Shown here: positions 1-2,890 of the stretch, piece after piece
Layout: every line of letters begins with the position of its first letter
How positions within the stretch are numbered: position 1 is the first letter of the stretch
IMG/VR virus record: IMGVR_UViG_3300029796_000320
Direction: 5' to 3' (one strand)
From: a virus
Lineage: Duplodnaviria > Heunggongvirae > Uroviricota > Caudoviricetes
Length of the DNA: 5,453 nucleotides
Notes under the pieces: model-generated
The model's database searches: none
Seen by the model: only the letters and a program-made list of their open reading frames with translations
Told to the model about the DNA's origin: nothing
Program-made: the position numbers and the translations under genes

Positions 1-351
1 ATGGAAGATAAATTGAAGATCAACATGAAGCGCCAGTGGCCTGAACCAAAAGATGGTGAGCCTCGCTTGCACATTAAAGAACCCGACAACTCTCCGCTAA
101 CTCCGGATGGTTGGGTTATAGTGCCGAAGAAACTAACCGCTGAGAACGGCGCTAAGGGTGTGCTATCCGGTGAATTTTCAGAAACTACGTTTATAAGCTG
201 CCCGGAATGCTTTGGTGATGATGATTGCGAAACTTGTGACTGCAGCGGGAGAATCGAAATCAAGGTTACAGTCAGTTGGACAACTATCAAAACTATTTGG
301 GCTAAAGGGTGTGAGCACTTTTCAATAGTAGCACCGCAGCAAGATGGGTGA
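1..351 (+). CDS. Hypothetical phage accessory protein with a Cys4 zinc-knuckle-like motif (CxxC-x5-CxxC); start uncertain and possibly 5'-truncated by the window edge
   Basis: Open frame runs from window position 1 to a TGA at 349-351, in the same orientation as xis/int (the early-leftward transcription direction). Motif C-P-E-C-F-G-D-D-D-C-E-T-C-D-C is encoded at nt 199-243. No family recognised from memory. Confidence 0.5.
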   Translation: MEDKLKINMKRQWPEPKDGEPRLHIKEPDNSPLTPDGWVIVPKKLTAENGAKGVLSGEFSETTFISCPECFGDDDCETCDCSGRIEIKVTVSWTTIKTIWAKGCEHFSIVAPQQDG

Positions 352-477: not shown

Positions 478-720
478 ATGTTCAAACGCTGCATCACCAA
501 GTGTGGAAGCACACCTGACATTCAAGCTTTTATTAATGAAGATGGTAAGCTTGTTGTTGAGAGGAGTGGTCCTTTTATTAGCAAACAACTTATCATTACC
601 TCTCCAGCGGAGATGGCAGGGGAATGGATAGTTTCTGAACCAGAGGAGTGGCACATCCCGCTTCCTTATGGCCCTCAGGGACTGATTTATAACCGTTATG
701 TTCAGAAGGAGGCGGGTTGA
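478..720 (+). CDS. Hypothetical small phage protein, 80 aa from the ATG at 478 (an in-frame ATG at 436 would give 94 aa)
   Basis: GGAG at 467-470 sits 7 nt upstream of the ATG at 478; the upstream ATG at 436 has no Shine-Dalgarno and would overlap a TATAAT-like hexamer at 443-448. Same strand as xis/int. No recognisable motif. Confidence 0.45.
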   Translation: MFKRCITKCGSTPDIQAFINEDGKLVVERSGPFISKQLIITSPAEMAGEWIVSEPEEWHIPLPYGPQGLIYNRYVQKEAG

Positions 721-999
721 CAATGTCAGGCATAACATCGCCGAGAAATCGAAAGAAAAACAGAACAAGGTAAACGTTGACCTTGCAGCATCAGGCATGG
801 AGTACAGAGAGCGCCTTAACATACCTGTTATCACTGAGCAGGTAGCATGAGAGCAACCTGAGCACTCACGCGAGTATTTCATGGAGCGCATCAGATACTA
901 TCGCGAGCAGTCGTTAAACATGCCCAAGGGAAGCAACCCATGGTATATCGAGATGGATGAACAGAACGCCAAGAAGTAAACGCAATTTGAACGAATGCG

Positions 1000-1025
1000 A
1001 ACCCGCCGAGTGCGGGTTTTCTTTT
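1000..1025 (+). terminator. Candidate rho-independent terminator
   Basis: Perfect 7-bp stem aacccgc (1000-1006) / gcgggtt (1012-1018) with loop cgagt, followed by ttttctttt. Confidence 0.55.
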
Positions 1026-1030
1026 ACCTG

Positions 1031-1055
1031 AACTCGCTACGGCGAGTTTTGTTTT
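1031..1055 (+). terminator. Second terminator-like hairpin, or a 5'-UTR structure of the downstream ORF
   Basis: Perfect 7-bp stem aactcgc (1031-1037) / gcgagtt (1042-1048) with loop tacg, followed by ttttgtttt. It ends only 3 nt before the GGAG of the next ORF. Confidence 0.4.
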
Positions 1056-1068
1056 ATGGAGACAAGAA

Positions 1069-1413
1069 ATGTCAGATTTGGCTATGAAGGTTTTGAAATG
1101 GCAATCGACTGGCGATGTTGGCATCAGTAGCGCAACTCTTGCCTCAATCGCATGTGGACTGAAAAAGAATATCTATGGTCATAGCTTCGGTGCTCCACAT
1201 GACGCAGCCGATTTCAGACGATGCGTTGCACTTGTTGAGCAGATTCCAGAAATCAGAGATTCATTCAACAAGGTTGCAAAGCGCGTTCCGGCATTCAAAG
1301 GAATCCTCAACGAATGGGATTCCCTCGTTGCTCTGTTGAAGTCTGAAATGAAGATACACGGAAACAAAGCACCAGAGACTTACAGAAGAATCAGCGAGCT
1401 ACGCAAGGACTAA
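1069..1413 (+). CDS. Hypothetical 114-aa phage accessory (moron-like) protein of unknown function
   Basis: ATG at 1069 preceded by GGAG at 1058-1061 (7-nt spacing); clean 345-nt ORF on the xis/int strand. Sits between two terminator hairpins and the pI/xis region. Lambda coordinates as I recall them (orf55 and ea8.5 upstream of xis) do not map onto any ORF here, so the region looks mosaic relative to lambda. Confidence 0.6.
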   Translation: MSDLAMKVLKWQSTGDVGISSATLASIACGLKKNIYGHSFGAPHDAADFRRCVALVEQIPEIRDSFNKVAKRVPAFKGILNEWDSLVALLKSEMKIHGNKAPETYRRISELRKD

Positions 1414-1504
1414 CCATGAAATAACACCGCCTCACACTCGATGAGGCCTGTTCATTGCTCAATGATATCCAGACCTACCATCGCCGCATCAATGCGGCTT
1501 TTTC

Positions 1505-1518
1505 TTGCGTGTAATTGC
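1505..1518 (+). promoter_or_regulatory. cII-binding box (TTGC-N6-TTGC) of the Int promoter pI
   Basis: TTGC at 1505-1508 and 1515-1518 separated by 6 nt, immediately upstream of the xis ATG at 1531. In lambda the cII-activated pI promoter overlaps the start of xis, so its transcript encodes Int but not intact Xis. Confidence 0.6.
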
Positions 1519-1530
1519 GGAGACTTTGCG

Positions 1531-1749
1531 ATGTACTTAACACTTCAGGAGTGGAACGCTCGCCAGCGACGCCCAAGAAGCCTTGAAACAGTTCGTCGAT
1601 GGGTGCGCGAATGCAGGATATTCCCTCCTCCTGTTAAGGATGGAAGAGAGTATCTGTTCCACGAATCAGCGGTAAAGGTTGACTTAAATCGACCAGTAAC
1701 AGGTAGCCTTTTGAAGAGGATCAGAAATGGGAAGAAGGCGAAGTCATGA
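1531..1749 (+). CDS. xis: Excisionase Xis (72 aa)
   Basis: Translation MYLTLQEWNARQRRPRSLETVRRWVRECRIFPPPVKDGREYLFHESAVKVDLNRPVTGSLLKRIRNGKKAKS matches lambda Xis as I recall it. GGAG at 1519-1522 is 8 nt before the ATG. The 3' end overlaps the int start by 23 nt, as in lambda. The track ORF starting at 1441 is an in-frame upstream extension, not the real start. Confidence 0.93.
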   Translation: MYLTLQEWNARQRRPRSLETVRRWVRECRIFPPPVKDGREYLFHESAVKVDLNRPVTGSLLKRIRNGKKAKS

Positions 1750-2797
1750 GCGCCGGGATTTACCCCCTAATCTTTATATAAGAAACAATGGATATTACTG
1801 CTACAGGGACCCAAGGACGGGTAAAGAGTTTGGATTAGGCCGAGACAGGAGGATAGCAATCACTGAAGCAATACAGGCCAACATTGAGTTATTTTCAGGA
1901 CACAAACACAAGCCTCTGACAGCGAGAATCAACAGTGATAATTCTGTTACGTTACATTCATGGCTTGATCGCTACGAAAAAATCCTCGCCAGCAGAGGAA
2001 TCAAGCAGAAGACTCTCATAAATTACATGAGCAAAATTAAAGCAATAAGGAGGGGTCTGCCTGATGCTCCACTTGAAGACATCACCACAAAAGAAATTGC
2101 GGCAATGCTCAGTGGATACATAGACGAGGGCAAGGCGGCGTCAGCCAAGTTAATCAGATCAACACTGAGCGATGCATTCCGAGAGGCAATAGCTGAAGGC
2201 CATATAACAACAAACCCGGTCGCTGCCACTCGCGCAGCAAAATCAGAGGTAAGGAGATCAAGACTTACGGCTGACGAATACCTGAAAATTTATCAAGCAG
2301 CAGAATCATCACCATGTTGGCTAAGACTTGCAATGGAGCTGGCTGTTGTTACCGGGCAGCGAGTTGGTGATTTATGCGAAATGAAGTGGTCTGATATCGT
2401 AGATGGATATCTTTATGTCGAGCAAAGCAAAACAGGCGTAAAAATTGCCATCCCTACAACATTGCATGTTGATGCTCTCGGGATATCAATGAAGGAAACA
2501 CTTGATAAATGCAAAGAGATTCTTGGCGGAGAAACCATAATTGCATCTACTCGTCGTGAACCGCTTTCATCCGGCACAGTATCAAGGTATTTTATGCGCG
2601 CACGAAAAGCATCAGGTCTTTCCTTCGAAGGGGATCCGCCTACCTTTCACGAGTTGCGCAGTTTGTCTGCAAGACTCTATGAGAAGCAGATAAGCGATAA
2701 GTTTGCTCAACATCTTCTCGGGCATAAGTCGGACACCATGGCATCACAGTATCGTGATGACAGAGGCAGGGAGTGGGACAAAATTGAAATCAAATAA
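1727..2797 (+). CDS. int: Tyrosine site-specific integrase Int, lambda type (356 aa)
   Basis: 356 aa beginning MGRRRSHERRDLPPNLYIRNNGYYCYRDPRTGKEFGLGRDRR, near-identical to lambda Int from memory. The tyrosine-recombinase catalytic context is present (HELRSLSARLY, LLGHKSDTMASQYRDD with the C-terminal nucleophilic Tyr). The stop codon (2795-2797) lies inside the P' arm, as in lambda. Confidence 0.97.
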   Translation: MGRRRSHERRDLPPNLYIRNNGYYCYRDPRTGKEFGLGRDRRIAITEAIQANIELFSGHKHKPLTARINSDNSVTLHSWLDRYEKILASRGIKQKTLINYMSKIKAIRRGLPDAPLEDITTKEIAAMLSGYIDEGKAASAKLIRSTLSDAFREAIAEGHITTNPVAATRAAKSEVRRSRLTADEYLKIYQAAESSPCWLRLAMELAVVTGQRVGDLCEMKWSDIVDGYLYVEQSKTGVKIAIPTTLHVDALGISMKETLDKCKEILGGETIIASTRREPLSSGTVSRYFMRARKASGLSFEGDPPTFHELRSLSARLYEKQISDKFAQHLLGHKSDTMASQYRDDRGREWDKIEIK

Positions 2798-2890
2798 TGA
2801 TTTTATTTTGACTGATAGTGACCTGTTCGTTGCAACAAATTGATAAGCAATGCTTTTTTATAAGGCCTACTTAGTATAAAAAAGCAGGCT
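2794..2890. other. attL (B-O-P') recombination site: P' arm with Int arm-type sites and IHF H' site, 15-bp core, and start of the bacterial B arm
   Basis: Core ttagtataaaaaagc at 2871-2885 is the reverse complement of GCTTTTTTATACTAA. Arm-type sites, read as reverse complements: P'3 2794-2803 (AAATCATTAT), P'2 2805-2814 (CAGTCAAAAT), P'1 2815-2825 (CAGGTCACTAT). An IHF-like element caacaaattgata at 2833-2845 is the reverse complement of TATCAATTTGTTG. Bacterial flank aggcttca follows the core. Confidence 0.85.

What the first reader, a model, noticed from the sequence alone, without database searches (positions are those of the whole stretch)
1069..1413. Uncharacterised 114-aa accessory ORF sitting behind two terminator hairpins, just upstream of pI/xis
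The xis-int module matches lambda, but the DNA to its left is not collinear with lambda as I recall it: mapping lambda's orf55 and ea8.5 coordinates onto this window lands on no ORF. Instead there is a well-formed 114-aa gene (GGAG plus ATG, 345 nt) that I cannot place in any family. It lies directly after two intrinsic-terminator hairpins (1000-1025 and 1031-1055) with no obvious promoter between them and the start codon. That suggests either expression only by antiterminated read-through of the early-leftward transcript, or a regulated 5' leader. Variable cargo next to int/xis in lambdoid prophages is where lysogenic-conversion, defence and anti-defence genes tend to sit. Function here is unknown.
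Basis: partly seen in the sequence, partly recalled or inferred. Interest (0 to 1): 0.62.

Follow-up and report, generated by a model that had tools for sequence, protein, structure and literature searches.

The report
Known phage gene ORF114, function unknown
The 114-codon frame is a real, conserved early phage gene, already catalogued as ORF114 of phages 434 and HK022; it sits right behind lambda's own terminators because the neighbouring gene orf55 is missing here, and its protein belongs to a large phage family of unmatched fold whose function nobody has tested.

Summary
Bases 1069-1413 encode a 114-aa protein with a GGAG ribosome site, directly after two terminator hairpins and with no promoter in between.

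It is not unplaceable. It is ORF114 of phage 434 (GenBank M60848), also HK022_32 and PHROG 1229. It occurs in 963 of 5426 complete E. coli genomes and is under purifying selection (dN/dS 0.13-0.29).

The two hairpins are lambda's own. In lambda, 434 and HK022 they precede orf55. Here orf55 is missing exactly between two look-alike "T-run + GGAGA" ribosome-site segments. About 615 E. coli genomes share this arrangement.

The gene is bracketed by terminators (tL4 pair upstream, t'I downstream) and lies upstream of pI. Expression by antiterminated pL read-through is therefore the best-supported inference. A regulated leader is not supported.

The protein is basic and forms seven helices (pLDDT 93). 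It has no PDB fold match and no Pfam, NCBIfam or PADLOC hit. The family has about 2,400 clusters in temperate and virulent phages and in megaplasmids, with no conserved partner gene. The consistent position next to xis holds only in the enterobacterial clade.

Function remains unknown. My best guess is a stand-alone early protein that modulates the host or its DNA. This is an ordinary, already-catalogued unknown.

The parts
999..1027 (+). First intrinsic-terminator hairpin (stem 999-1019) plus T-run. It is the counterpart of t-L4 of phage 434.
   Evidence: -12.0 kcal/mol. M60848 annotates t-L4 at the equivalent place. The stem sequence differs between the window, 434 and HK022/lambda, but a hairpin plus T-run is kept in each.
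1030..1057 (+). Second intrinsic-terminator hairpin (stem 1030-1049) plus T-run. It is nearly identical in lambda, 434 and HK022, where it precedes orf55.
   Evidence: (-11.9 kcal/mol, z -5.2). Predicted as terminator t4 of lambda in PMC4195576.
1046..1068 (+). Hybrid ribosome-site segment 'GTTTTGTTTTATGGAGA|CAAGAA'. The left half matches the orf55 leader and the right half the ORF114 leader. It marks the orf55-less junction and contains GGAG at 1058-1061.
   Evidence: Four-way alignment; 434 sequence. The junction type is seen in 35 of 80 IMG/VR loci and about 615 E. coli genomes.
1069..1413 (+). ORF114: 114 aa, 12.7 kDa, pI 9.4, seven-helix protein of unknown function.
1429..1447 (.). Conserved 19-nt inverted repeat just after the stop codon, also present in 434. 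No function assigned.
1483..1505 (+). t'I-type terminator hairpin GCCGCATCAATGCGGC plus T-run. It forms the right-hand boundary of the ORF114 cassette.
   Evidence: Annotated as t'-I or terminator in 434 records. Alignment with lambda.
1505..1530 (+). pI promoter region with the CII site TTGC-N6-TTGC (1505-1518). It is downstream of ORF114, so pI cannot express ORF114.
   Evidence: Identical to lambda and 434 in the alignment. Annotated in OL657226.
1531..1749 (+). xis (72 aa), 98.6% identical to lambda Xis.
1727..2797 (+). int (356 aa), 98.9% identical to lambda Int.

Best explanation
Bases 1069-1413 are a genuine gene: the ORF114 gene of the lambdoid 'exo-xis' (delayed-early, leftward) block, first annotated in phage 434.

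Anatomy (shown). ORF114 is a one-gene cassette. In 434-type phages it sits between orf55 and pI/xis. It is bounded on both sides by 'hairpin + T-run' elements. In this window orf55 is absent, and the join lies inside two near-identical 'T-run + GGAGA' ribosome-site segments. That places ORF114 straight behind the lambda hairpin pair (tL4 region).

Expression (inferred). The gene has no promoter, has terminators upstream and downstream, and lies upstream of pI. It can therefore only be transcribed by antitermination-modified polymerase coming from pL during infection or induction. It should not be expressed in the quiescent lysogen or from the CII-dependent pI transcript.

Function (inferred, weak). 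The product is a small, basic, compact seven-helix protein of a fold with no solved relative. It belongs to a large phage and plasmid family that always occurs as a single gene among early, recombination and DNA-methylase genes. I take it to be a non-essential early accessory protein that acts alone by binding a conserved host or nucleic-acid target, that is, host takeover or counter-defence. I do not think it is a prophage-expressed conversion or defence gene.
For: Identity:
- PHROG 1229, E 2.8e-51, full length.
- 96% amino-acid identity to 434 ORF114, from the protein alignment; HK022_32 differs at 4 of 114 residues in the translations. The nucleotide matches to 434 and HK022 are 93.8-94.2%. 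Both genes are annotated.
- 963 of 5426 E. coli genomes carry it.

Coding:
- dN/dS 0.13-0.29 among E. coli alleles.
- Synonymous sites are saturated against the 62%-identical Salmonella homologue.

Anatomy:
- Alignments.
- 434 sequence.
- 35 terminator-direct versus 45 orf55-type junctions in 80 IMG/VR loci.
- About 615 versus about 470 E. coli genomes.

Terminators; t-L4 and t'-I annotated in 434; lambda terminators t4 and t5 predicted in PMC4195576.

No promoter.

Operon context: same strand as ral, cIII, kil, gam, bet and exo in strain ERP001. The exo-xis region is described as pL-transcribed in PMC8614690 and PMC4195576.

Protein:
- pLDDT 93.4, seven helices.
- Only uncharacterised viral matches.
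- No Pfam, NCBIfam or PADLOC hit.
- 2441 clusters at E <= 1e-3.

Stand-alone: no neighbour family occurs in more than 8 of 101 diverse loci. Neighbours are RdgC, DUF5131, PDDEXK proteins and 10 DNA methylases.

Relatives occur in virulent and integrase-less phages.
Against: - No transcript, protein or phenotype data exist for any family member that I could find.
- The promoter scan is a simple consensus scan. An atypical or activator-dependent promoter inside the upstream theta-like gene cannot be excluded, although the two terminators would still intervene.
- The direction of the orf55 event (deletion versus insertion) is inferred from junction sequences only.
- The invariant residues (S20, P43, D45, D48, R51, C52, W83) could be helix caps and core residues. 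They say nothing firm about a binding site or catalysis.
- The functional guess rests only on genomic neighbourhood and timing.
Confidence: 0.6

Rival explanations
1. ORF114 is an accessory factor of site-specific recombination, for example a helper or modulator of excision. That would explain why it sits immediately upstream of the excisionase.
For: - In 80 IMG/VR loci the first gene after ORF114 is an excisionase-like protein in nearly every locus with enough downstream DNA. These are of four unrelated types: TorI 24, lambda Xis about 27, an AlpA-like HTH 12, and P22-Xis-like 9.
- In Salmonella phage SPN9CC the homologue ends 3 nt before an unannotated P22-type xis.
- In an Acinetobacter phage-plasmid a 32%-identical homologue precedes a PrtN-like gene and an integrase.
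Against: - Among 101 diverse clusters (at most 70% identity), only 5 have a tyrosine integrase and 2 a resolvase within 3 kb.
- Homologues occur in integrase-less N15-like PY54, Mu-like SuMu, Vibrio podophages and Clavibacter phage CN1A.
- The enterobacterial pattern is explained by swapping of xis-int modules next to a fixed last gene of the left operon.
- There is no similarity to P22 Xis despite the similar size.
Confidence: 0.1
2. ORF114 is a DNA-binding regulator with an atypical helix-turn-helix. Like other exo-xis proteins, it would bias the lysis-lysogeny decision.
For: - pI 9.4.
- The nearly invariant G-[VI]-S-S-x-T-[LM] segment at the start of helix 2 looks like an HTH turn plus recognition helix.
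- Other exo-xis genes affect lysogenisation and induction (PMC8614690).
Against: - No Pfam HTH model is among the 25 most-matched Pfam families (of 31 with any hit) in 66 diverse members scanned at E <= 1.
- The loop between helices 1 and 2 is 6 residues, longer than in canonical HTH motifs (comparison from my own knowledge).
- Presence in virulent phages argues against a role specific to lysogeny.
Confidence: 0.2
3. ORF114 is a moron: prophage-expressed cargo for lysogenic conversion or anti-phage defence.
For: - Presence/absence polymorphism at a fixed position next to int/xis.
- The cassette is flanked by terminators, as morons are.
Against: - No promoter between the terminators and the start codon, and none on the + strand in 1-2000.
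- No PADLOC hit.
- No signal peptide or membrane segment is evident (GRAVY -0.24, all-helical soluble model).
- Homologues occur in virulent phages.
Confidence: 0.08
4. The two hairpins are a regulated 5' leader (attenuator or riboswitch) specific to ORF114.
For: Two stable hairpins lie immediately upstream of the ribosome site.
Against: - The same hairpins precede a different gene, orf55, in lambda, 434, HK022 and strain A134_1EC.
- Both have canonical T-runs.
- There is no alternative pairing that hides the GGAG in the centroid structure.
- The only Rfam hit is rsmX at 26 bits against a gathering score of 56.
Confidence: 0.03
5. The family works on tRNA or RNA ends, for example as an accessory domain of RNA repair or CCA addition.
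For: - One metagenomic protein fuses the domain to a CCA-adding enzyme.
- In plasmid pF051 the homologue is near an RNA ligase and an AAA ATPase.
Against: - The fusion is a singleton on a 1.9-kb contig.
- No RNA-repair gene recurs among neighbours in 101 diverse loci.
- These are three cherry-picked hints.
Confidence: 0.05

Closest known systems
ORF114 of phage 434 (GenBank M60848; CPT_434_33 in OL657226) and HK022_32
   Same: Same gene. It has 96% amino-acid identity to 434 ORF114 and differs from HK022_32 at 4 of 114 residues (translations). Length is the same. The downstream hairpin, t'I, pI and xis-int are the same.
   Different: In 434 and HK022, orf55 lies between the tL4 hairpins and ORF114. 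Here orf55 is absent and ORF114 follows the hairpins directly. No function is recorded for any of them.
Lambda orf55 and the variable end of the exo-xis region (PMC8614690, PMC4195576)
   Same: Same slot: the last gene before t'I/pI/xis on the pL transcript, behind the same hairpin pair.
   Different: The protein is unrelated. Orf55 is a 55-aa beta-rich protein modelled on T7 Gp2. ORF114 is a 114-aa all-helical protein. There is no orf55 homologue in the window.
Morons of lambdoid phages (my own knowledge: Juhala et al. 2000, promoter-gene-terminator units)
   Same: A single-gene insertion between conserved genes, polymorphic among relatives and bounded by terminators.
   Different: It has no promoter of its own. 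It is therefore not expected to be expressed from the repressed prophage.
PY54 ORF50 / 'N15 early protein' and other PHROG 1229, 15291 and 8038 members
   Same: Homologous domain. PY54 is 50% identical by tblastn. The top viral structural match, UniProt Q7Y3W5 (155 aa), has TM 0.95 and 46% identity; 155 aa is the length of PY54 ORF50, but the tool gave no name for it, so equating the two is my guess. These genes lie in early-region contexts.
   Different: They are not next to an excisionase or integrase. All are uncharacterised.
P22 Xis (116 aa)
   Same: Similar size and position just upstream of int in P22-like phages.
   Different: No sequence similarity (E 19 and 4.2). In SPN9CC both genes are present side by side.

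Membership tests
ORF114 / PHROG 1229 family | Full-length profile match | tested here: met
   phrog_1229 E 2.8e-51, residues 1-114 against profile positions 1-113 of 116.
ORF114 / PHROG 1229 family | Near-identity to the type genes of 434 and HK022 | tested here: met
   96% amino-acid identity to 434 ORF114; HK022_32 differs at 4 of 114 residues. The nucleotide matches are 93.8-94.2%. Annotated as ORF114, CPT_434_33 and HK022_32.
ORF114 / PHROG 1229 family | Family-wide invariant residues (S20, P43, D45, D48, R51, C52, W83) | tested here: met
   All are present in the window protein. Invariant in 66 sequences with 28% mean column identity.
Lambdoid exo-xis delayed-early genes | Located between exo and xis on the pL strand | tested here: met
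   xis lies directly downstream. exo is outside the window, but a prophage of strain ERP001, whose 141-base terminator-ORF114 junction is 100% identical, has ral-cIII-kil-gam-bet-exo upstream on the same strand.
Lambdoid exo-xis delayed-early genes | Transcription from pL dependent on antitermination | not testable with these tools
   Inferred from the absence of a promoter and the flanking terminators. Needs RNA mapping with and without N.
Moron (promoter-gene-terminator cassette) | Own promoter | tested here: not met
   No sigma-70-like site on the + strand in 1-2000. Only 19 nt lie between the terminator stem and the ATG.
Moron (promoter-gene-terminator cassette) | Own terminator, and presence/absence among relatives | tested here: met
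   Hairpin plus T-run at 1483-1505. Lambda and strain A134_1EC lack the gene at the same site.
Excisionase / recombination directionality factor | Similarity to an Xis family (Exc, HTH_17, TorI or P22 Xis) | tested here: not met
   No Pfam hit. BLASTP against P22 Xis gives E = 19.
Known anti-phage defence systems (PADLOC) | Match to a defence-system protein model | tested here: not met
   0 families at E <= 1.
Known anti-defence proteins | Homology or fold match to a characterised inhibitor or sponge | tested here: inconclusive
   No PDB fold match. Not found in the supplements of two anti-defence screens. No dedicated anti-defence HMM library was available.
Rho-independent terminators (the two hairpins) | G+C-rich stem followed by a U-run, conserved across relatives | tested here: met
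   Hairpin 1 has different stems in the window, 434 and lambda/HK022, all of which still pair. Actual termination was not measured.
Helix-turn-helix DNA-binding proteins | Match to an HTH profile or fold | tested here: not met

The most novel reading that the evidence does not exclude
ORF114 is the best-placed experimental handle, sitting in lambda-like phages with full genetics, on a very large and structurally unmatched family of stand-alone early proteins. The family is found in temperate and virulent phages of Proteobacteria and Actinobacteria and in Pseudomonas megaplasmids. Under this reading it carries out a still-unrecognised host-takeover or counter-defence activity against a widely conserved bacterial target.
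Probability: 0.3. Interest if true: 0.6.

Novelty: already known. Interest (0 to 1): 0.3.

Why it matters
As a finding it is ordinary. The gene has been annotated since the 434 int-xis sequence was deposited, and its odd placement behind terminators follows from a simple loss of orf55.

Its residual value is as a lead. A gene carried by 18% of complete E. coli genomes, including many Stx prophages, belongs to a family of about 2,400 sequence clusters. That family has a confident predicted structure, no solved or named relative, and no Pfam entry.

HK022, 434 and the mEp phages are genetically tractable. A deletion plus a defence-library plating assay would be a cheap route to a function for the whole family, and would add to the poorly understood exo-xis region.

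Tried and rejected
1. P22 Xis. It has the same size and position, which suggested ORF114 might be a P22-type excisionase. Rejected: no similarity, and SPN9CC carries both genes.

2. General linkage to integrases. Rejected: only 5 of 101 diverse loci have one nearby.

3. Conserved partner gene. None was found.

4. Domain fusions as functional hints. The N- and C-terminal extensions have no Pfam domains. The one CCA-enzyme fusion is a singleton on a 1.9-kb contig.

6. Structure of the tandem-domain relative P0068, to look for a dimer. The single-sequence model had pLDDT 37 and was uninformative.

7. Literature. Nothing was found for ORF114, its accession numbers, its PHROG number or its peptide strings. 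It is absent from the supplements of Lopatina et al. 2024 and Silas et al. 2023.

8. Rfam. Only a sub-threshold rsmX hit over the hairpins.

9. Other frames and the opposite strand of 891-1413. No PHROG hits.

10. The genome-contig scan returned only 5 loci, and two single-protein viral scans returned 0-1 loci.

Full report
**Setting**

The window is the int-proximal end of a lambda-like prophage at the classical lambda attachment site.
- Int (1727-2797) is 98.9% identical to lambda Int, and Xis (1531-1749) is 98.6% identical to lambda Xis.
- The P' arm and core TTAGTATAAAAAAGC (2871-2885) are followed by ybhC and a ybhJ-like gene.
- The + strand of the window is the strand of lambda's leftward early (pL) transcript.

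**The observation**

- The ORF at 1069-1413 is exactly as described: 114 aa, ATG start, with GGAG at 1058-1061.
- Two hairpins, each followed by a T-run, lie at 999-1027 and 1030-1057. Their energies are -12.0 and -11.9 kcal/mol, and the pair gives z = -4.05 against shuffles.
- Only 19 nt separate the second stem from the start codon.
- A consensus scan finds no + strand promoter in 1-2000.
- The window has no homologue of lambda orf55, ea8.5 or ea22.

**What the gene is**

- The protein matches PHROG 1229 over its full length (E 2.8e-51).
- It has 96% amino-acid identity to 'ORF114' of phage 434. That gene is annotated in GenBank M60848 and again as CPT_434_33. HK022_32 differs at 4 of 114 residues.
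- The gene is present in many Stx-converting phages and mEp phages.
- It occurs in 963 of 5426 complete E. coli genomes, always annotated 'hypothetical protein'.
- Pairwise dN/dS among E. coli alleles is 0.13-0.29.
- Against the 62%-identical Salmonella homologue, synonymous sites are saturated while dN is 0.33.

It is therefore a real gene under purifying selection. It is already catalogued, but I found no functional study. Searches for its names, accession numbers and peptide strings returned nothing. The reviews of the exo-xis region cover orf60a, orf61, orf63, orf73, ea22, ea8.5 and orf55 only.

**Why it sits behind two terminators**

Alignments give the following layouts.
- Lambda: hairpin 1, hairpin 2, 'TTTTGTTTTATGGAGATGATAAATG', orf55. 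The stop codon of orf55 lies in the loop of GCCGCC-TGAT-GGCGG-T6. This is the t'I terminator, and pI and xis follow directly.
- 434, HK022 and many prophages: the same layout up to that hairpin. Then comes 'TTTTTTTATTGGAGACAAGAAATG', ORF114, a conserved inverted repeat, and a second look-alike hairpin GCCGC-ATCAAT-GCGGC-T5. Then pI and xis.
- So ORF114 is a one-gene cassette bounded by 'hairpin + T-run' elements.
- This window: the sequence reads 'GAGTTTTGTTTTATGGAGA|CAAGAAATG'. The left part is the orf55 leader and the right part is the ORF114 leader. orf55 is missing precisely between two near-identical T-run + GGAGA segments.

Both layouts are common.
- 35 terminator-direct versus 45 orf55-type junctions among 80 IMG/VR loci.
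- About 615 versus about 470 E. coli genomes.

The terminators are independently supported.
- The 434 record annotates the first hairpin as t-L4 and the downstream one as t'-I.
- Bloch et al. predicted the second hairpin and t'I as lambda terminators t4 and t5 (PMC4195576).
- Hairpin 1 has different stems in the window, 434 and lambda/HK022, yet it always pairs.

**Expression (inference)**

- ORF114 has no promoter, terminators on both sides and a position upstream of pI.
- It should therefore be made only from antitermination-modified pL transcription, that is, during infection or after induction.
- In strain ERP001, whose junction is 100% identical, the upstream genes ral, cIII, kil, gam, bet and exo are on the same strand.
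- The 'regulated leader' alternative fails. The hairpins serve a different gene in other phages, and nothing reaches threshold in Rfam.

**The protein**

- 12.7 kDa, pI 9.4.
- The AlphaFold model has mean pLDDT 93.4, pTM 0.87 and seven helices.
- PDB sequence profiles give only coiled-coil noise.
- Viral model matches are all uncharacterised.
- There is no hit in Pfam, NCBIfam or PADLOC, including 66 diverse members scanned at E <= 1.
- A profile search of 1.84 billion representatives finds 2441 clusters at E <= 1e-3 and 417 at E <= 1e-10.
- Across 66 members with 28% mean column identity, the invariant residues are S20, P43, D45, D48, R51, C52 and W83.
- These sit at the starts of helices 2 and 3 and in the core. 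They may be helix caps rather than a functional site. That reading is my own and is untested.

**Context across the family**

Within E. coli and Salmonella, the gene is always the last one before an excisionase. Four unrelated excisionase types are involved: lambda Xis, TorI, an AlpA-like HTH and P22-type Xis. An Acinetobacter phage-plasmid shows the same order.

This does not generalise.
- In 101 clusters of distant relatives, only 5 have a tyrosine integrase and 2 a resolvase within 3 kb.
- No neighbour family recurs in more than 8 loci.
- The commonest large neighbours are DUF5131, RdgC, PDDEXK proteins and ten DNA methylases.
- Homologues also occur in N15-like PY54, Mu-like SuMu, Vibrio podophages, Clavibacter phage CN1A and 109 Pseudomonas megaplasmids.

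The family is therefore a stand-alone gene of early, DNA-metabolism or anti-restriction neighbourhoods. The enterobacterial xis adjacency is most simply a consequence of swapping xis-int modules next to a fixed last gene of the left operon.

**Verdict**

The anatomy and the expression logic are well supported. The function is not known. I commit, at low confidence, to a non-essential early protein that acts alone on a conserved host or nucleic-acid target (host takeover or counter-defence).

I rank the rivals in this order:
1. An atypical DNA-binding regulator.
2. An excision helper.
3. A prophage-expressed moron.
4. An RNA-end factor.
5. A regulated leader.

The gene is already known as an uncharacterised ORF, so interest is low to moderate. 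Its value is as a tractable entry point to a large unnamed family.

Noticed in passing
window 698-979 (+): A DNA polymerase III theta (HolE / P1 Hot-like) reading frame is interrupted by a single in-frame TGA at 848-850. From my recollection of HolE, an Arg codon stands there. The same in-frame stop is present in prophages of strains A134_1EC and ERP001, although nearby codons differ. RefSeq calls these 'internal stop' pseudogenes. It could be a pseudogene that has spread or a read-through gene.
   Followed up: partly
window 1483-1530, compared with lambda (L274) and 434 (L001): The ORF114 cassette is bounded by two look-alike terminator hairpins. In lambda a single hairpin (GCCGCC-TGAT-GGCGG-T6), containing the orf55 stop codon, directly precedes pI. 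In 434-type phages that hairpin precedes ORF114, and a second one (GCCGC-ATCAAT-GCGGC-T5) precedes pI. Hairpin + T-run + Shine-Dalgarno segments appear to act as mosaic junctions.
   Followed up: yes
window 1429-1447: A 19-nt inverted repeat, GCCTCACACTCGATGAGGC, lies immediately after the ORF114 stop codon and is conserved in phage 434. It has no T-run on the + strand, and no function is assigned.
   Followed up: no
window 1-351 (+): This is the 3' part of a gene. Its product ends with a dATP/dGTP pyrophosphohydrolase-like tail (PF04447, E 1.2e-7) followed by a CxxC...CxxC zinc-ribbon-like segment. RefSeq names homologues inconsistently, as 'molecular chaperone DnaJ' or 'DUF550'.
   Followed up: no
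window 478-720 (+): An 80-aa ORF matches PHROG 9613 (E 7e-50, unknown function). It is another conserved uncharacterised exo-xis-region gene.
   Followed up: no
L006 2854-3204 (Salmonella phage SPN9CC, NC_017985): A P22-type xis gene (116 aa, near-identical to P22 Xis) is not annotated in the RefSeq record. It lies between the ORF114 homologue and int.
   Followed up: yes
L025 (pSY153-MDR) and 108 other Pseudomonas plasmid records: Distant ORF114-family members (about 26% identity) are carried by 109 Pseudomonas plasmid records; all but two of those listed are 365-584 kb. In pSY153-MDR the gene lies next to two orphan DNA methyltransferases and a divergently oriented HTH-integrase pair.
   Followed up: partly
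window 2798-2885: This is a lambda-type attL: the P' arm, then the core TTAGTATAAAAAAGC at 2871-2885, then the bacterial arm and ybhC. The P' arm differs from lambda at a few bases next to the core (ATAAGGCCTAC versus my recollection of ATAATGCCAAC in lambda).
   Followed up: no
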